From IMG/VR virus record IMGVR_UViG_2698536369_000010: a DNA stretch of 17,208 nt; one strand, given 5' to 3'. The first letter of the stretch is position 1. Every line of letters starts with the position of its first letter. Positions 1 through 13,406 of the stretch are shown piece after piece. Both the position numbers and the translations under genes were made by a program. Origin of the DNA: a virus (lineage: Duplodnaviria; Heunggongvirae; Uroviricota; Caudoviricetes). Below the pieces are notes generated by a model. It ran no database searches and was not told the origin of the DNA. It worked only from the letters and a program-made list of their open reading frames with translations.

Positions 1-62
1 CCGGCAGAAGCAGAAAAAGCTTATTATGCTTCCATCGGCAACGATGATCTGGCAGCCTGAGT

Positions 63-2675
63 TCACAGATAAAACACTCTCCAGGAAACCCGGGGCGGTT
101 CACCTGCCTGAATATCGAGCTGCTCGTTTTTCTGTCTGACAATTTCTTTTTCCCGTTCCAGAGCATCATTCAGAGCCTGCATTTTCTCTTGAAAAACATG
201 ATCTGACATTCCACGGGATTTATCTGCATAGTCACGTTCAAGTTGCAGACGCTGATTGTTATATCCATGTTCAATCCGCAGTAATTCCTGCTGGCGTTGC
301 TGATTTTTATCGCCAACCCCATAACCAGCAATCTGAATATCATACCCCTGCTGACGATTATCAATCGAAGCCTGCAATGAATCACGCCATGCTGTTATTT
401 CGGCGGATTCCTTGATTAGCCTGTTATTTTTTTCAATCGCAACATTTTTCTCCATCAACGCGGTTATTTCTTCCCGGTGTAAGAGAAGCGATTTCTGATC
501 CTGGGTTAATTTCGTTGATGGTCGTGACTCTAGGTCGGCAATCCGCTGACGCCACTTAACCAGTTCCTGTTCAGAGGAACTTAATTTAACGGTCAACTCA
601 GCTTGTGAACTTAGTAACGCATTCTGTTGATTCAGATGATCAATCATTCGTTGGGCTGCATCATCAGAATAACCTTTCGCCTTTGGTTGCTTTGGATCTT
701 TATAACGCTCATTTATTTGAGCGATAAGATTATTATATTCTTCCTTTGAATACTGATTCTTTAGCTTTTCCAGTTTTGCAAGTTCACTAGCTCTCTGCTG
801 CTCCCGGGTCTGATATTGTTTTGAAAAGGCATCTGCTCTCTGTCTGAGTTCAATTCCTTCCTGTTGTCGCTTGTTGTAATCGTTTATTGATGAATTTAGT
901 ACGTCCTGAGCAATTTTTTCTGCTTGAAGTACGCCCAATTGCTGCTTTAATCGTGCCAGCCTTTTATTTTGAGCTCCGCCATCTCCAATGCCACCTAACC
1001 CGAAAACTCCGGGTCGGGTATTTTTTTCTATTTCATCAATTTGACGGAGAACATCTGAGATTTTTTGATCAAGGGAGGCCTCACGGCCAATATCCAGCAT
1101 GGAATCCCATGCCCATTTTGCGGAGTCTGCGACAGCTTTCCATGCAGTCTCAAGATAACCAAGATTTTCTTTAATCTGGTTGGTGCGCTGGATCATTGAG
1201 GATGAGTATTCTTCTGTCGCAATGCGGGCGGCCTCCTGCTGGTTCCCTTCATCCTGTAGCGCCTTAATCTGGTTATAAGTCGCAAGTGTCAGAAAATGGT
1301 ACTGATCATTAAGTTTTGATATGGCACTGACAGGATCCTTTGCAATTTCATTGAAGTCATTAACCAGTTGTTCGGTTGATATTCCTGTTACTTCGCTCGT
1401 TTTTACTATCGCTGTCGTCACTTGCTCCAGCGAACTGCTCGCTACCTTTCCCGAACGCACAAGCTGATTTAATACTGCCGCCGCAGCACCAGTTGTCGAA
1501 TCAGCCGCATTCCCGGCACGTTGAGCTATATCGCCCAATTGCCCGCTGGTTGTCCCCAACTGATTTCCGGTAAGAATAAGAGATTTATTAAATTCGTCCT
1601 GCTCCTGAGAGCCTTTATAGTAAGCCAGTCCTAAGACCCCAACGGCTGCTGCGGCCAGGGTAAAAGGATTAATTAATCCCAGCACATAAGAACCTACACC
1701 TTTGATCGCCGGGCCAATCCCACCGAACATATCTTTTAGCTGGCCGCCCTGCTGCATTAACACCATAAATGGCGACTGACCAGTGGACAACCCAACAACA
1801 ATATCCGTCATTTGTGCAGGCAACATGCGCATAGCAAAAGCCGTTTGTTTTGCCGACATTCCGGTTTTGCTTAATTGTGATTGAGTAACCTCAAGCTCAC
1901 TCCGCATAGCACGAAGTTTTCCAGAAAGCTCCTCATACATTTCAGGAGAAAGCATCCCCTTAGCTTTTGCTTCATTGAGCTGTTTCTGTTGTTCTACCAG
2001 ACGATTAAAAGCAGTTCCGACAGGATCAAGTTGAGCAATCAGACGTTGCAAAGCAACAACCTGTTCATCATGCGCTTTTGCTGCTTCTCGCTCTGCCTGA
2101 GCCTCTCCGGTAAGCTCTCGCCGTGTTTCCTGTATTTTTCGGCTATAATTCTCAAACTGAGAACCATTTATTTTCCCGGATGCAAACGCAGCATTAAGTT
2201 CATCATGCTGTTGTTCAAGATTTCTTAGCGCCGCAGCCAGAGGGTCGATCTTGTCCAGCATTCTTTGAAAGGCCTGAGCCTGCGCTTCCTGCTGGGCGGC
2301 AGCAAGTTTTCCGGCCTTCTCGGCTTCTCTCTGCGCTTGCGCAACCCCGCTCAATTCCTCTGTGGTTTCATTAAGTTTACGGACAAGAAATTCATATTCT
2401 TCTTTATCAATAAGCCCTTTATCGAAAAATTTCTTTAATTCAGAATAGCGTCGACCGACAGTATCAATTGCGGCACCAACTGGATCAATAGTTGCTTTTA
2501 ATTTTGCGAGCGCGTTCTTCTCATCTTCTGTTGCCTTAGTCACTTTCCCTGCGCTATTTGCAGCAGTTTCCCCAGCCTGCGTCATTTTGACTAATGAGGA
2601 GGTCAGATTGTCAGCATTATTTTTCGCTCCAGTGCTATCAATAATTATTGCGAGACGCGAGGTTTGCTCTGCCAT
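63..2675 (-). CDS. Tail length tape measure protein (870 aa)
   Basis: Largest ORF, immediately downstream of the G/GT chaperone pair. N-terminal coiled-coil repeats, central hydrophobic/Gly-rich segments (e.g. [21 protein letters not shown]), Q/K/E-rich C-terminus. AGGAG about 9 nt upstream of the ATG at 2673-2675. Confidence 0.85.
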
Positions 2676-2840: not shown

Positions 2841-3610
2841 CTACACACACTGCTCCTGAAAATACTGGTCATCCAGTGCAAAGATCACTGCTTCAAATTC
2901 ATCGCGCTCAATCAATACCGGATGAGTGGCTAAATATTCATTTATCTCTGTCAGAGATAAAGGCAAAGGCACCCCAGCCATTCCAGCATAACGTCGGGCA
3001 CGGGATATTACCGAATAGGCGTACAACAACTCCTTAAGCACCGGGTCTATTTCTGGTTCCGGTATCGGTGGCAACCTGAGTTTTTCTCGCTTCCATCTTG
3101 CCTTTTCCCCCCTTTCTCCCCCGAACTCCGATAACCACCGCTGGGCAGCTATGGCTTTTTTATCGTATCCTGCTTCTGCTGCTCTTTACCCTGGGCGATG
3201 CTGGCTGCTTCTGCAAGGATCTGCCAGTACAACTCTGGATTCTGCTTAAGCAGCGCGATCCCTCGTTCTGCCGTATATTCCAGTGCAACCTCAACACCAT
3301 TAACCAGTTCACCAACCCCTTTCCAGTCTTTCAGCAGATAACGAGCGGCATTATCAATGAGTAAATCATCAACAGAATCCACCTCGGAAACCTTTGAAAT
3401 ATCAAACTCCTTCGTTCCGACGTGCAAACTGGCATCCATTTTCTCAATGTGGCGACGGATTAATGCATTACGGGAGCGATACTGATCGTTATCGCTGCTT
3501 GCCACCAACAGTTTTAACCCGTCTACAGGTTTTAAGTCCTTCATTGGCGTAAACCAGCGTTCTCCACCAATGATAATTTTCTGATTAAGAATAAACATCC
3601 ATAACCTCAT
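2841..3610 (-). CDS. Tail assembly chaperone GT fusion made by programmed -1 frameshift (T extension covers 2841-3161)
   Basis: The -1 frame is open from 3185 down to 2841 and overlaps the 3' end of G. Slippery A AAA AAG is in the correct X XXY YYZ register in the G frame. The T-frame has no own start near the overlap (first start in the six-frame track is a TTG at 3074). Confidence 0.6.
3149..3610 (-). CDS. Tail assembly chaperone G (about 153 aa)
   Basis: Sits between major tail protein and tape measure. Ends ...GKEQQKQDTIKKP with the slippery heptamer one codon before its TAG stop. Two possible ATG starts (3610 or 3598), both with G-rich SD. Confidence 0.7.
   Translation of the reverse strand: MRLWMFILNQKIIIGGERWFTPMKDLKPVDGLKLLVASSDNDQYRSRNALIRRHIEKMDASLHVGTKEFDISKVSEVDSVDDLLIDNAARYLLKDWKGVGELVNGVEVALEYTAERGIALLKQNPELYWQILAEAASIAQGKEQQKQDTIKKP
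3155..3161 (-). other. Programmed -1 ribosomal frameshift slippery heptamer A AAA AAG
   Basis: Minus-strand ACG ATA AAA AAG CCA TAG; the heptamer is identical to the E. coli dnaX slippery site. Position matches the conserved G/GT frameshift of long-tailed phages. Confidence 0.6.
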
Positions 3611-3690: not shown

Positions 3691-4620
3691 TCACGGCAGC
3701 CGGGGAATTTTTTTTCTGGTTATCGTAGGTGCTTCATCTGCTGCGGTAATGCTCAATTGAACCTGGATAATGTCGCTATTACCCCCATCAGGCCATTCAC
3801 CTGACACCTGAACCTTCGGGAAACTGAAAGTGTATGCCCCCTCTCCATTCGAAAGCGTGAAGCTGAACGGAACTGTTTCTCCAGTCAGTGTTTTACTCCA
3901 GATTTCCCACGCGGCTTTAGACCATGAAAGCGTCACCGTACCGGACGGTGTAAAAGTAGTCGGAATATTTGCTCCTGCATAAGGCGAGCCAGTCCCGATA
4001 CAACGCTGTGTCTGGAGTTTGTTATCGAACTGAATATCAAAACTGTCGATACAAAAACCGTTACCTCCGGCAACACCATTCAGGCTTACTGCTGAAACCT
4101 CCTTAAACGAATAACGTAGCTTTCCTGCACTATCCACAGGTTCGCCTTTGATAAAATTCGTATCATCGGCCTTTGATTCCCAGTCCAGTCCGGCAAAGGT
4201 TACGGTCGCTGTAATATCGCCGTCGTTAGGGATCTGCATTTTCCATGAGCCAACCTGCGCTCCTCTGACGACAGAGGCAATTCCGACATCGGACGCATAG
4301 GTCGCCAGAGAAAATGTTATTCGCTCATTCCCCATTGTCAGAGAATCGCCTGACCATTCCGCGCCGAAACAGGATGCAAGAAAATCATCATGTTGACCCC
4401 AGCGAAATTTGGTACCAACATCACCGCCGACATCCACAGTGCCAGGCGTCGCCCCCTGAGCCATCCGGGAGCCACCAATCTCATTATTTTCGCCTTTATT
4501 CTGGGTGGGTTTTACTCCCCAGCTTGTGCGTTTTAATAAACTCCAGTCACCACTTGCTGGCGTAGTGCCTGCAACCGTCTCCCGGATAAATGCCGAGATA
4601 ACCTTTGCACCTGAACTCAC
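3691..4620 (-). CDS. Major tail (tube) protein (309 aa)
   Basis: Directly upstream of G/GT and downstream of the head-tail joining genes. GTG start at 4618-4620 preceded by AGGAGG with a 5-nt spacer. Gly/Thr/Ser-rich beta-type composition. Confidence 0.65.
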   Translation of the reverse strand: MSSGAKVISAFIRETVAGTTPASGDWSLLKRTSWGVKPTQNKGENNEIGGSRMAQGATPGTVDVGGDVGTKFRWGQHDDFLASCFGAEWSGDSLTMGNERITFSLATYASDVGIASVVRGAQVGSWKMQIPNDGDITATVTFAGLDWESKADDTNFIKGEPVDSAGKLRYSFKEVSAVSLNGVAGGNGFCIDSFDIQFDNKLQTQRCIGTGSPYAGANIPTTFTPSGTVTLSWSKAAWEIWSKTLTGETVPFSFTLSNGEGAYTFSFPKVQVSGEWPDGGNSDIIQVQLSITAADEAPTITRKKIPRLP

Positions 4621-11029: not shown

Positions 11030-12331
11030 TTAAATCCGAAGTGATGTGACTCTTCCGGTCGGTTTGACAATAGGGAATTGCTTAACGATGAAATAACCTC
11101 CGGCATCATTCGGGTGATCATTGCCAGATTTTTTATCAGGCTCCCCCTTATCATCCCAGACCTGTTGCTCCAGAGATTCGGCATATACCGGACAACGCTT
11201 CACATTAACTTTATAGCGACGCTCACCATTGGCATTGCAGAACATTGCATTCATTGAGTTAACGCGATCTTTTACTGGCGGGTTCGAGCTGTTCACCACA
11301 ACGTTAAAACCTGCCTGCTTAAGCTGGGCTATATCCGTCGTACTTGCGTTACTTGATTTTCTGGAATCTCCGGAAGCATCTGGATAAATATAAATCTCCC
11401 TCACTTTCCGGTAATCATGCCCGTCATACAGCCAGAAGCGTTCTTTAATGAGGCGGATCATATCCGGCGTATCGTAGGCATTGATGATTTCAGTTACCGC
11501 ACATGGAAGCCCCAAACGCAGCACATGGACGATTCCCGCCATCTTTCCAACGTTAAAATCCATCCCAATATAAATCGGCTCCCCTGGCTGCTCCACTTCT
11601 TCGCAATTATTCAGTTTCCGGTCAAACTGATGGTAAACAGTACCACTTGTCAGGTTAGTAAACCGTCCTAGAAGATAGGCTTTAATCAGCTCTGGAGGGT
11701 ATGATTCAAGAAGTGAAGGAATGTAATCTGCTGGCAGGTTCTTTTCATTATCGAAAGTAGATGCCTGCACCAGACCATACAGTGAGGCCAGCTCTGTTTT
11801 TTCACGCACGGCTTTAACAAACTGCTCGTAGACAAATTTGAATCCTTCCGGCGTGGTTGTAACGTCAATACCGTTGCGAAGTCCATCAATCTTATAACGC
11901 ATACGCGCAATTATCTTGCGCCACGCCGTTCTGGCTTTTTCCTTCGGCAAAATGTCCAGTTCATCCACCAGCGCATTACCAATTTTGAAACCGACGATCG
12001 TTTGTGGCTTCTCCATCGATCTGCAGATAGTGGTTCCCCGATACTGGCGTCCGTAATAAAAGTGAACCTCTTTATTTCCCTCATTAATTTTTACGTTCAA
12101 TCCCCAGTCAGCAGCAACTTCTTCCACTGTAGGGTAAAAAATATCGCGAATTTGGGGATACGTTGGCGCAAAATATCCCTGATTTATACCTGGATGCTCC
12201 CAAATCCCCTTGCATATGCCGCCACACCCAACCCATGTTTTGCCCGAGCCAAAACCAGCAATATAGGCTTTAAATTTATGGGGCATTGAAAGAAATCGCG
12301 CCTGAGGCACATTAAGCGTCGGAGAGATCAT
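11030..12331 (-). CDS. Terminase large subunit (about 433 aa from ATG at 12331)
   Basis: Walker A motif GFGSGKT near the N-terminus and acidic nuclease-type motifs (IGMDFN, IYPDASGDS) in the C-terminal half. AAGGAG SD 8 nt upstream of the preferred ATG; the track start is an upstream GTG. Confidence 0.9.
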   Translation of the reverse strand: MISPTLNVPQARFLSMPHKFKAYIAGFGSGKTWVGCGGICKGIWEHPGINQGYFAPTYPQIRDIFYPTVEEVAADWGLNVKINEGNKEVHFYYGRQYRGTTICRSMEKPQTIVGFKIGNALVDELDILPKEKARTAWRKIIARMRYKIDGLRNGIDVTTTPEGFKFVYEQFVKAVREKTELASLYGLVQASTFDNEKNLPADYIPSLLESYPPELIKAYLLGRFTNLTSGTVYHQFDRKLNNCEEVEQPGEPIYIGMDFNVGKMAGIVHVLRLGLPCAVTEIINAYDTPDMIRLIKERFWLYDGHDYRKVREIYIYPDASGDSRKSSNASTTDIAQLKQAGFNVVVNSSNPPVKDRVNSMNAMFCNANGERRYKVNVKRCPVYAESLEQQVWDDKGEPDKKSGNDHPNDAGGYFIVKQFPIVKPTGRVTSLRI

Positions 12332-13406
12332 CTTCATCACTCCTTAATCTGGCATCAACCACATTAATATTGATCGCCACAGGCTGGGGATGTTCATTAT
12401 CCTCCACCGTTTCGATCTCTTTGCGCAGCTTCTGGTTCTCTATTCTGCGCCGTTCAATTTCCAGTTCCTGTAGCCGCTTATCTGCACATAATGCCCCGCC
12501 AGCAGAAAGCAAACGCAACAATTCACGCCGGGCGGCAGCCTTATCCTCCAGCAGGATCTCAACACCGTATTTTCCGAGCTTTGACCCTGCATATAATTGC
12601 CGCGCATCCCCATCAAGCAGTGTGGTATCAGCCATATAAAGCTGTCCTGTTCCCTCACCGCAGCACTTCGGGCAATCAGGATTGGGTATGGCGTTATCAA
12701 CAAAGCCGAGGCCTCCATATTCCGGCTCGGGTTTACCATCTCTGGAGGCCTGTGCCGCAGCCTTATCGAATTCTGCAATATCACGCCACTGGTAGAGATG
12801 ATTCTCGCCCCAGCAATAACGGCAGTTAACACGGCGAAATTGTGCCAACTGATTGGGGTCGGCCTGGACAATGGCCATCAACTGGCTCACCAGTAAATCC
12901 AGGTCTGCGGTATAGCGTTTCTGGTACTGATTGCGGAAGTAGCTGATAGCACGATAAACCCTGGCATTTCTAAGCATACGGCTGGCGTTGCTGTTAGCTG
13001 TCGCACCTTGCCCCTCATAACCAGCCAGTCGGTATGCCTCTGTCGGCTTTTTCCCCTGAGCAACCAACATGGCGAATTTTGCCTGCTGGTCAGAAATACC
13101 GAATTCATCGGGGCAGAACGAAATTTCTTCCGTGTCCCCCTCAATCAGGAGTGCATCGGATACAGCCTTTTTTTTCTGAGATTTTCCGTTCTGCCTTTGC
13201 GCAGTCTGCGCAGTTTTTTTTCGCGCACTTTTTTGCGCAGTTTTGCGCATTTCTTTCTGCGCATTTTTCGGAGTTTTTTTGATGTAACGACGGGCTGTTG
13301 CGTAGTTCAGTCCCCTTGCTTCACACCATGCCACCGGAGATATACCGGAGCGGGTGTATTCAGCAATATACTCCTGCTGCAACGCCCCCCAGTCCGGTCT
13401 GCTCAT
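12312..13406 (-). CDS. Terminase small subunit, atypically long (364 aa)
   Basis: Directly upstream of and overlapping the large terminase. N-terminal HTH-like segment, a Lys/Ala/Gln-rich basic linker, a core resembling small-terminase signatures (ISDQQAKFAMLVAQGKKPTEAYRLAGY...ASRMLRNARV), and an inserted Cys cluster CRYCW...CPKCC. Confidence 0.75.
   Translation of the reverse strand: MSRPDWGALQQEYIAEYTRSGISPVAWCEARGLNYATARRYIKKTPKNAQKEMRKTAQKSARKKTAQTAQRQNGKSQKKKAVSDALLIEGDTEEISFCPDEFGISDQQAKFAMLVAQGKKPTEAYRLAGYEGQGATANSNASRMLRNARVYRAISYFRNQYQKRYTADLDLLVSQLMAIVQADPNQLAQFRRVNCRYCWGENHLYQWRDIAEFDKAAAQASRDGKPEPEYGGLGFVDNAIPNPDCPKCCGEGTGQLYMADTTLLDGDARQLYAGSKLGKYGVEILLEDKAAARRELLRLLSAGGALCADKRLQELEIERRRIENQKLRKEIETVEDNEHPQPVAININVVDARLRSDEDDLSDA
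13167..13280 (-). repeat. Phased array of six GCGCA motifs separated by T/A tracts, inside the terS 5' region
   Basis: Plus-strand GCGCA at 13198, 13207, 13222, 13234, 13244 and 13258, with T runs of 4-8 nt between them. Encodes the basic linker KNAQKEMRKTAQKSARKKTAQTAQ. Confidence 0.6.

What the first reader, a model, noticed from the sequence alone, without database searches (positions are those of the whole stretch)
3149..3185. dnaX-type A AAA AAG slippery site producing the G/GT tail chaperone fusion
The heptamer sits in the correct register one codon before the G stop, and the -1 frame stays open for about 105 further codons to 2841 with no nearby start of its own. This is the conserved tail-chaperone frameshift, here using the exact E. 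coli dnaX heptamer. The 77-aa ORF should not be annotated as an independent gene.
Basis: partly seen in the sequence, partly recalled or inferred. Interest (0 to 1): 0.45.

Follow-up and report, generated by a model that had tools for sequence, protein, structure and literature searches.

The report
Phage tail chaperone frameshift site
This is the well-known programmed -1 ribosomal frameshift by which a tailed phage (here a Rac-type E. coli prophage) makes a short and a long tail-assembly chaperone from two overlapping reading frames; comparison with relatives strongly supports it, no experiment has been done on it, and it is an ordinary example.

Summary
On the minus strand the 149-aa ORF 3598..3149 ends ...ATA AAA AAG CCA TAG. 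A_AAA_AAG (3161-3155) is in zero-frame register one codon before the stop. The -1 frame stays open for 104 more codons to 2841. The ORF lies between a tail-tube gene and a tape-measure gene and matches PHROG 313 (tail assembly chaperone).

Comparative evidence supports frameshifting:
- In 10 relatives from E. coli to Acinetobacter the G/T junction falls in the same alignment column.
- Every member has NNA_AAG at that column. Raoultella and Acinetobacter have G_GGA_AAG; Erwinia has GCA AAG TAA.
- Third-position variation switches from the 0 frame to the -1 frame at the heptamer.
- No start codon is conserved in the T frame.

It is dnaX-like only in the heptamer. There is no conserved or stable downstream hairpin, there is only a weak conserved AGGA upstream, and the shifted product is longer, as in lambda G/GT.

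Databases call G "YdaY" (a K-12 Rac legacy name) and annotate T separately or not at all. So the result is an annotation fix, not new biology. This prophage copy also has its tape-measure gene cut by an IS3-family element. No frameshift product was measured.

The parts
3149..3598 (-). G: the short tail assembly chaperone ORF (149 aa; an alternative in-frame ATG lies at 3610). Databases name it YdaY.
   Evidence: PHROG 313 'tail assembly chaperone', E 5e-46. Same start as annotated in phage SPF_0923 and vB_EcoS-683R6. PGAP calls it ydaY.
3155..3161 (-). Slippery heptamer A_AAA_AAG in zero-frame register (codons AAA 3160-3158 and AAG 3157-3155)
   Evidence: Identical in 80/80 IMG/VR loci and in Klebsiella, Citrobacter, Dryocola and Entomohabitans. 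Replaced by G_GGA_AAG in Raoultella. The Lys AAG codon is an invariant column of the family alignment.
3149..3185 (-). Overlap between the end of G and the open -1 frame (the finding's interval)
   Evidence: the -1 frame opens 37 nt before the end of G.
2841..3155 (-). T segment: 104 codons plus stop, read in the -1 frame after the slip. It forms the C-terminal extension of the predicted 252-aa GT fusion (3598..3155 + 3155..2841).
   Evidence: PHROG 1189 E 1e-36, plus a weak match to the C-terminal part of PHROG 313. Sub-threshold match to Pfam Phage_TAC_18. Third-position variation is in this frame from the first codon after the heptamer.
2841..3074 (-). The mechanical 77-aa ORF from TTG 3074 (GenBank phage records annotate 61 aa from TTG 3026). 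Probably not an independent gene.
   Evidence: The first start-like codon in the T frame ranges from codon 28 to codon 59 among relatives and none is conserved, while the peptide upstream of it is conserved.
3168..3171 (-). [quoted passage not shown] A possible weak stimulator (inferred).
   Evidence: Present in all 11 heptamer-bearing sequences (AGGAG in Raoultella). It meets the sequence and spacing criterion of Sharma 2014. It is also the Gln-Asp/Glu codon pair, so protein constraint is not excluded.
3128..3154 (-). Weak local hairpin directly after the heptamer. Not judged functional.
   Evidence: About -11 to -12 kcal/mol, z +0.6 to +0.9 against shuffles. Not conserved: RNAalifold gives -3.5 kcal/mol with 0 covarying pairs.
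3691..4620 (-). Tail tube (major tail) protein gene, upstream neighbour
   Evidence: Pfam Phage_tube_2, E 7e-32.
63..2675 (-). Tape measure protein gene, downstream neighbour. It is 870 aa here because an IS3-family element cuts it at about position 102.
   Evidence: Pfam TMP_2, E 1e-81. The intact relatives are 1077 aa. Homology ends at window ~103. Window 1-102 is an IS1203-like end.

Best explanation
Window 3161-3155 (minus strand) is the programmed -1 ribosomal frameshift site of the tail assembly chaperone gene pair of a Rac-type siphovirus prophage.

Most ribosomes read ...ATA AAA AAG CCA and stop at TAG, which gives the 149-aa G protein. A minority slip back one base while the two Lys tRNAs occupy AAA-AAG. 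They re-pair on A-AAA-AA and then read GCC ATA GCT... for 104 more codons. The product is a 252-aa G-T fusion, ...DTIKK-AIAAQRWLSEF....

By analogy with lambda gpG/gpGT, G and the G part of GT would coat the tape measure protein, and the T part would recruit the tail tube protein. The low slip frequency would set the G:GT ratio.

- Shown here: the anatomy of the site, the family-wide conservation of the slip position and of slipperiness, and coding constraint in the -1 frame starting at the heptamer.
- Inferred: that the fusion is actually made, its frequency (probably 0.3% to a few per cent), the chaperone function, and any stimulation by the upstream AGGA or the nearby stop.

In this particular copy the tape measure gene is interrupted by an insertion sequence. 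The signal is intact, but the prophage is probably tail-defective.
For: **Anatomy and context**
- Register, stop and -1 ORF are as described.
- The pair lies between a tail-tube gene and a tape-measure gene; G matches PHROG 313, tail assembly chaperone.

**Conservation of the arrangement**
- T is in the -1 frame in all relatives examined: Klebsiella, Erwinia, Pseudomonas and Acinetobacter phages and Citrobacter, Raoultella, Dryocola and Entomohabitans prophages.
- In a 10-member GT alignment the junction falls in one column, 183. Lys148, the AAG codon, is one of six invariant G residues.
- Slipperiness is maintained through sequence change. GTA AAA AAG becomes GTG GGA AAG in Raoultella, including the synonymous A-to-G change at the X position. 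Acinetobacter has G_GGA_AAG. Erwinia has GCA AAG TAA.
- The heptamer is fixed in 80/80 IMG/VR loci, while the 0-frame stop sits 2, 8 or 36 codons further on.

**Coding signal**
- Pairwise differences by codon position are 351/226/868 in the -1 frame for the 96 nt after the slip. They are 28/48/227 in the 0 frame for the 39 nt before it.
- No start codon is conserved in T.

**Outside support**
- The relative TRS1 is already annotated with a joined chaperone CDS.
- A_AAA_AAG and G_GGA_AAG have nearly equal measured efficiencies in E. coli. In-phase AAAAAAG is strongly avoided in E. coli genes, z -10.1 (Sharma 2014 Table S3).
Against: - There is no direct evidence of a fusion protein.
- No stimulatory hairpin is detectable. 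In the cited no-stimulator reporter the bare heptamer gave only about 0.3%.
- G has no match in the local Pfam copy, NCBIfam or PDB sequences.
- The AlphaFold model was too poor (pLDDT 52.6) to test the chaperone fold.
- T reaches Pfam Phage_TAC_18 only below threshold.
- This copy sits in a prophage with an IS-disrupted tape measure gene, so it may not be under current selection.
Confidence: 0.9

Rival explanations
1. T is an independent small gene, translated from its own start (TTG 3074, or TTG 3026 as in GenBank phage records). The heptamer would then be incidental.
For: Phage and RefSeq records annotate a separate 61-aa 'hypothetical protein'. AAGGAG lies just upstream of TTG 3026.
Against: The 27 or more codons upstream of any start are conserved as protein, with third-position variation in the -1 frame. 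The first start-like codon ranges from codon 28 to codon 59 among relatives, and the AAGGAG is not conserved. The spacing between AAGGAG and TTG 3026 is only 3 nt.
Confidence: 0.04
2. The same GT protein is made mainly by transcriptional slippage: RNA polymerase adds one A in the A6 run, and translation is then standard.
For: An extra A in the run gives exactly the same amino-acid sequence, so protein data alone cannot separate the two routes (inference).
Against: Relatives keep the same junction with GGGAAAG, CGCAAAG or GGAAAAG. These have only three or four A's and are not polymerase-slippery. High-efficiency slippage by bacterial RNA polymerase is described for runs of 9 A or T (review PMC5009743).
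Confidence: 0.04
3. There is no recoding. G and T are the two halves of a gene broken by a frameshift mutation or sequencing error in a decaying prophage.
For: The prophage copy is defective, with an IS in the tape measure gene. Homopolymer-length variants and a deletion-fused G-T protein exist in databases (P0002, P0027, P0009).
Against: The identical 0/-1 arrangement, with an in-register slippery site, is present in more than 100 loci from at least nine genera, including sequenced phage genomes.
Confidence: 0.02

Closest known systems
Phage lambda gpG/gpGT tail assembly chaperone frameshift (Levin, Hendrix & Casjens 1993; Xu, Hendrix & Duda 2004, 2013, 2014, as summarised in PMC5009743)
   Same: A gene pair between the major tail gene and the tape measure gene. 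A -1 slip near the 3' end of G on a heptamer whose A-site codon is Lys AAG. The longer GT product carries a C-terminal T domain. No hairpin is evident. Some relatives of this locus (Raoultella, Acinetobacter) carry lambda's own G_GGA_AAG at the homologous position.
   Different: The heptamer here is A_AAA_AAG and lies one codon before the stop. The proteins belong to another sequence family (PHROG 313/1189, 'YdaY'). A direct comparison with lambda G was not run. Function and efficiency are untested here.
E. coli dnaX tau/gamma frameshift signal
   Same: The identical A_AAA_AAG heptamer, decoded by the same tRNA-Lys. An SD-like element lies upstream (AGGA here).
   Different: dnaX has a strong stem-loop a few nt downstream and AGGGAG upstream. 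It shifts at roughly 50% and yields a shorter product (established knowledge; PMC4344849 abstract and PMC5009743). Here no stable or conserved hairpin exists, the SD-like element is a minimal AGGA, and the shifted product is 103 aa longer than G (252 against 149 aa).
ECs1801-type tail assembly chaperone of O157 Sakai prophage Sp9 (cluster A_AAA_AAG_25, marked [true] in Sharma et al. 2014, PMC4066793 Table S4)
   Same: An E. coli prophage chaperone gene that ends ...AGA AAA AAG TAG, with the same heptamer at its 3' end and a -1 T ORF.
   Different: No detectable protein similarity to the window's G (BLASTP finds no alignment). It is a different chaperone family, and its stop directly follows the heptamer.
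Acinetobacter phage vB_AbaS_TRS1 tail assembly chaperone (RefSeq NC_031098, joined CDS TRS1_19)
   Same: Called homologous because tblastn matched it over the T part only (residues 170-249, 38.8% identity, E 4e-6). Its G aligns with the window's G at 21% identity. The junction lies in the same alignment column. It is already annotated as a frameshifted chaperone.
   Different: It uses G_GGA_AAG, and its G ORF continues 26 codons past the slip site.

Membership tests
Frameshifted tail assembly chaperone pair (lambda G/GT kind) | Gene pair lies between the major tail/tube gene and the tape measure gene | tested here: met
   Phage_tube_2 at 3691-4620(-); TMP_2/TMP_4 at 63-2675(-).
Frameshifted tail assembly chaperone pair (lambda G/GT kind) | The second ORF overlaps the 3' end of the first in the -1 frame and lacks a conserved start of its own | tested here: met
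   37-nt overlap; 104 codons after the slip. The first start-like codon ranges from codon 28 to codon 59 among relatives.
Frameshifted tail assembly chaperone pair (lambda G/GT kind) | X_XXY_YYZ slippery heptamer in zero-frame register within the overlap | tested here: met
   A_AAA_AAG at 3161-3155.
Frameshifted tail assembly chaperone pair (lambda G/GT kind) | The arrangement and slipperiness are conserved in diverged homologues | tested here: met
   Same junction column in 10 members from E. coli to Acinetobacter. Heptamer swap to G_GGA_AAG. 80/80 IMG/VR loci. Frame switch in codon-position variation.
Frameshifted tail assembly chaperone pair (lambda G/GT kind) | The proteins belong to a recognised chaperone sequence or fold family | tested here: inconclusive
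   G matches PHROG 313 'tail assembly chaperone' at 5e-46. No hit in the local Pfam copy, NCBIfam or PDB. T reaches Pfam Phage_TAC_18 only at 14-18 bits against a cut-off of 27. The AF2 model has pLDDT 52.6, so no fold search was run.
Frameshifted tail assembly chaperone pair (lambda G/GT kind) | The GT fusion is produced at a low fixed ratio and both products are needed for tail assembly | not testable with these tools
   Needs reporter assays, proteomics or genetics.
dnaX-type frameshift cassette | A_AAA_AAG heptamer in register | tested here: met
dnaX-type frameshift cassette | Upstream SD-like stimulator | tested here: inconclusive
   [quoted passage not shown] It is conserved in 11/11 heptamer-bearing relatives and lies within the 6-17 nt criterion of Sharma 2014. 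It also encodes Gln-Asp/Glu and is much weaker than AGGGAG.
dnaX-type frameshift cassette | Stable downstream stem-loop at a short spacing | tested here: not met
   z +0.9 for the window. z from -0.5 to +0.6 in 12 relatives. Consensus structure -3.5 kcal/mol, 4 pairs, no covariation.
dnaX-type frameshift cassette | The shifted frame ends almost at once, giving a shorter product | tested here: not met
   The -1 frame runs 104 codons.
ECs1801-type prophage chaperone (Sharma 2014 cluster A_AAA_AAG_25) | Protein homology to ECs1801 | tested here: not met
   BLASTP finds no alignment with E <= 100.

The most novel reading that the evidence does not exclude
The recoding site and a full-length T frame persist in about a fifth of complete E. 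coli genomes. This includes defective copies: K-12 Rac, where G is 5'-truncated, and this window, where the tape measure gene is cut by an IS. One reading is that the YdaY / YdaY-T pair is still expressed and has been kept for a host-beneficial or phage-interference role rather than for tail assembly. A milder novel reading is that this family offers a natural allelic series at one homologous codon pair (A_AAA_AAG, G_GGA_AAG, GAA_AAG, GCA_AAG+stop), working without any hairpin.
Probability: 0.04. Interest if true: 0.5.

Novelty: new member of a known kind. Interest (0 to 1): 0.2.

Why it matters
**Annotation**
- 'ydaY' is a legacy E. coli K-12 gene name. It is carried by 1073 of 5426 complete E. 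coli genomes and is usually called from an internal TTG.
- It is the short tail assembly chaperone of Rac-type prophages.
- The small ORF after it should be joined to it by ribosomal slippage rather than listed separately or left out.

**The family as a study system**
- At one homologous codon pair the slippery sequence has been exchanged (A_AAA_AAG, G_GGA_AAG, A_AAG plus stop), while the shift position stayed fixed.
- This could serve studies of how the G:GT ratio is tuned.

It does not change what is known about phage tail assembly or frameshifting.

Tried and rejected
- **Downstream stimulatory hairpin.** I tested single-sequence folds and a consensus fold. Nothing was significant or conserved.
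- **Heptamer count.** The count alone is no better than chance.
- **Other in-register heptamer.** A_AAA_AAG at 13173-13167(-) opens onto only 8 codons in the -1 frame, so it looks like chance.
- **Related loci with the wide alignment.** I repeated it with the enterobacterial alignment A2.
- **Curated family searches.** NCBIfam, the local Pfam copy and PDB sequence searches with G found nothing above threshold. All homologues carry a precomputed PF27119, which the local Pfam copy lacks.
- **Structure.** The AlphaFold2 model of G from 30 homologues had pLDDT 52.6. I ran no fold search because its matches would be meaningless.
- **Literature.** Searches for ydaY with frameshift, and for Rac prophage with tail assembly chaperone, found nothing relevant.
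- **Sharma 2014 cluster.** I tested whether cluster A_AAA_AAG_25 (ECs1801) is this family. It is not.

Full report
**1. Observation**

All long ORFs of the window lie on the minus strand.

- The ORF 3610/3598..3149 ends GAT ACG ATA AAA AAG CCA TAG.
- A_AAA_AAG therefore occupies 3161-3155 in X_XXY_YYZ register. One sense codon and then TAG (3151-3149) follow it.
- The -1 frame is open from 3185 to 2841. After a slip on the heptamer it encodes 104 residues, AIAAQRWLSEF...QEQCV.
- The first start-like codon in that frame is TTG 3074, which gives the 77-aa ORF.

The heptamer on its own is not remarkable: it occurs 7 times in the window against 5.5 expected. The only other in-register copy (13173-13167, in the small terminase gene) opens onto an 8-codon -1 frame.

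**2. Context**

The upstream neighbour 3691-4620(-) is a tail tube protein (Pfam Phage_tube_2, E 7e-32). The downstream neighbour 63-2675(-) is a tape measure protein (TMP_2, E 1e-81). Further upstream lie a tail terminator, neck proteins, the major head protein, the portal and the terminase.

- The 149-aa protein matches PHROG 313 'tail assembly chaperone' (E 5e-46, profile positions 15-149 of 258).
- The -1 peptide matches PHROG 1189, and weakly matches positions 173-246 of the same PHROG 313. That pattern is expected if some PHROG 313 members are annotated as fusions.

The DNA is 98-100% identical to Rac-type prophages in 1073 of 5426 complete E. coli genomes, including K-12, where the gene is 5'-truncated. 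In those genomes the gene is named ydaY. It also matches Salmonella phage SPF_0923 and several E. coli phage records. None of the records I inspected annotates slippage. T is listed as a separate 61-aa hypothetical protein or is left out.

**3. Comparative test**

tblastn with the predicted fusion found relatives in Klebsiella (65% identity), Erwinia (55%), Pseudomonas (32%) and Acinetobacter (31-33%) phages. G and T were nearly always two pieces in different frames. A scan of species-representative genomes added Citrobacter, Raoultella, Dryocola, Entomohabitans, E. ruysiae and Shigella.

- T is in the -1 frame relative to G in every locus examined.
- In the G alignment, the Lys encoded by the AAG of the heptamer is one of only six invariant residues.
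- In an alignment of 10 predicted fusions, the junction falls in the same column, 183.

At that column the sequence is:

| Organism | Sequence at the slip site |
|---|---|
| E. coli | ATA AAA AAG |
| Klebsiella, Citrobacter, Dryocola, Entomohabitans | GTA AAA AAG |
| Raoultella | GTG GGA AAG |
| Acinetobacter | (G)GGA AAG |
| Pseudomonas | (G)GAA AAG |
| Erwinia | GCA AAG TAA |

The Raoultella change needs three substitutions. One is a synonymous A-to-G change in the preceding Val codon, which restores a perfect heptamer. That is covariation for slipperiness.

All 80 IMG/VR loci carry AAAAAAG, while the zero-frame stop sits 2, 8 or 36 codons further on. So the heptamer is the constrained element, not the stop.

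**4. Coding-frame test**

I compared 11 enterobacterial sequences pairwise.

- In the 96 nt after the heptamer, differences by codon position are 351/226/868 in the -1 frame.
- In the 39 nt before it, they are 28/48/227 in the 0 frame.

The frame under protein-coding constraint therefore changes at the heptamer. The first ATG/GTG/TTG in the T frame lies anywhere from codon 28 to codon 59 in different relatives. The conserved peptide A(I/L)xAQxW(L/I)xxFGGExGxKAxWxRxKLxLP... has no initiation codon that could produce it. Continuation from G is the only consistent way to translate it.

**5. Mechanism and stimulators**

The best-supported mechanism is tandem -1 slippage of the two Lys tRNAs on A_AAA_AAG.

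- *Downstream structure.* The window has a weak hairpin directly after the heptamer (about -11 to -12 kcal/mol). The 3' region does not fold better than shuffled controls (z +0.9; z from -0.5 to +0.6 in 12 relatives). The consensus fold has four invariant pairs, -3.5 kcal/mol and no covariation.
[quoted passage not shown] This meets the SD-like criterion of Sharma et al. 2014. It is also a Gln-Asp/Glu codon pair, so its role is only a possibility.
- *Expected efficiency.* In that paper's reporters, A_AAA_AAG and G_GGA_AAG behave alike: 0.29 and 0.28% without a stimulator, 4.3 and 3.8% with the IS911 signals, and 39 and 43% with the IS3 pseudoknot. In-phase AAAAAAG is strongly avoided in E. coli genes, z -10.1. 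This explains why the two heptamers can replace each other here. It suggests an efficiency between about 0.3% and a few per cent, which is the low G:GT regime described for lambda (PMC5009743).

**6. Rival explanations**

- *Independent initiation of T.* The conserved start-less N-terminal segment contradicts this.
- *Transcriptional slippage on the A6 run.* This would give the same protein. However, relatives keep the junction with GGGAAAG, GGAAAAG or CGCAAAG, and efficient bacterial polymerase slippage is described for runs of nine (PMC5009743).
- *A pseudogene or sequencing frameshift.* The same arrangement in more than 100 loci, including sequenced phage genomes, excludes this. Occasional homopolymer variants and one deletion-fused G-T protein do exist in databases.

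**7. Comparison with known systems**

It works like lambda G/GT. It meets every sequence-level criterion of that kind: position, -1 overlap, in-register heptamer and conservation.

Membership in a curated chaperone protein family is only partly shown.

- There is a strong PHROG 313 match.
- The local Pfam copy, NCBIfam and PDB give no hit for G.
- T gets sub-threshold Phage_TAC_18 matches.
- The AlphaFold model was unusable, pLDDT 52.6.

It is not a dnaX-type cassette beyond the heptamer. The hairpin criterion and the short-product criterion were both tested and not met.

The same heptamer is already on record for another E. coli prophage chaperone, ECs1801 (Sharma 2014 Table S4, marked [true]). 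I checked that gene. It ends AGA AAA AAG TAG but has no detectable similarity to this protein.

A distant relative, Acinetobacter phage TRS1, is already annotated with a joined chaperone CDS. tblastn matched it over the T part only, at E 4e-6. [quoted passage not shown]

**8. Verdict**

The finding is correct, and comparative analysis supports it strongly. It is an ordinary instance of a textbook phenomenon.

- Its practical value is an annotation correction for the widespread 'ydaY' locus.
- It also offers a neat natural series of interchangeable slip sites.
- In this window the prophage is probably tail-defective, because an IS3-family element truncates the tape measure gene.

Interest is 0.2. 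Novelty: new member of a known kind.

Noticed in passing
window 1-102 (+), and the tape measure ORF 63-2675 (-): The first ~100 nt of the window are the end of an IS3-family element (IS1203/IS629-like). It has 24,818 copies in 4074 of 5426 E. coli genomes and is annotated as an IS3-like IS1203 family transposase. Homology to intact prophages stops at ~103. The tape measure gene is therefore cut to 870 aa instead of 1077 aa, and this prophage copy is probably tail-defective.
   Followed up: yes
window 3149-3508 (-); L023 6133-6492: RefSeq/PGAP annotates the chaperone as 'protein YdaY', 119 aa, starting from an internal TTG (3508). This appears to be carried over from the 5'-truncated K-12 Rac copy. 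The T frame is unannotated in strain S40 and is a separate 'hypothetical protein' elsewhere. All 120 listed homologues are 'hypothetical' or 'YdaY', and all carry a precomputed Pfam PF27119 that the local Pfam copy lacks.
   Followed up: partly
window 13167-13173 (-), inside ORF 12312-13406 (-) (small terminase, PHROG 51): A second A_AAA_AAG in zero-frame register. The -1 frame closes after 8 codons (GCIRCTPD), so it is most likely a chance occurrence or would give only a truncated product.
   Followed up: partly
proteins P0009, P0005, P0002/P0027: Natural variants of the junction. P0009 is an E. coli protein in which a deletion fuses G to T in frame (...QILAEA-GYDKKAIAAQRW...). P0005 is a Salmonella variant without the 0-frame TAG, with G extended by 34 codons. 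P0002 and P0027 come from read-assembled contigs that shift to the +1 frame in the A run, probably through homopolymer errors.
   Followed up: no
L020 (Raoultella sp. BIGb0138) 1969-1977; L005 (Erwinia phage Gungnir39) 887-895: At the homologous codon pair Raoultella has GTG GGA AAG, lambda's heptamer. Erwinia has only GCA AAG followed directly by TAA, which is an A-site-only A_AAG motif plus a stop. This is a natural series of slip-site strengths in one protein family.
   Followed up: partly
window 3034-3096 (-): A 20-codon ORF in the third frame (ATG 3096, MEARKTQVATDTGTRNRPGA) lies behind a purine-rich GGGGGGAAAAGG stretch inside the T coding region. There is no evidence that it is more than chance.
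   Followed up: no
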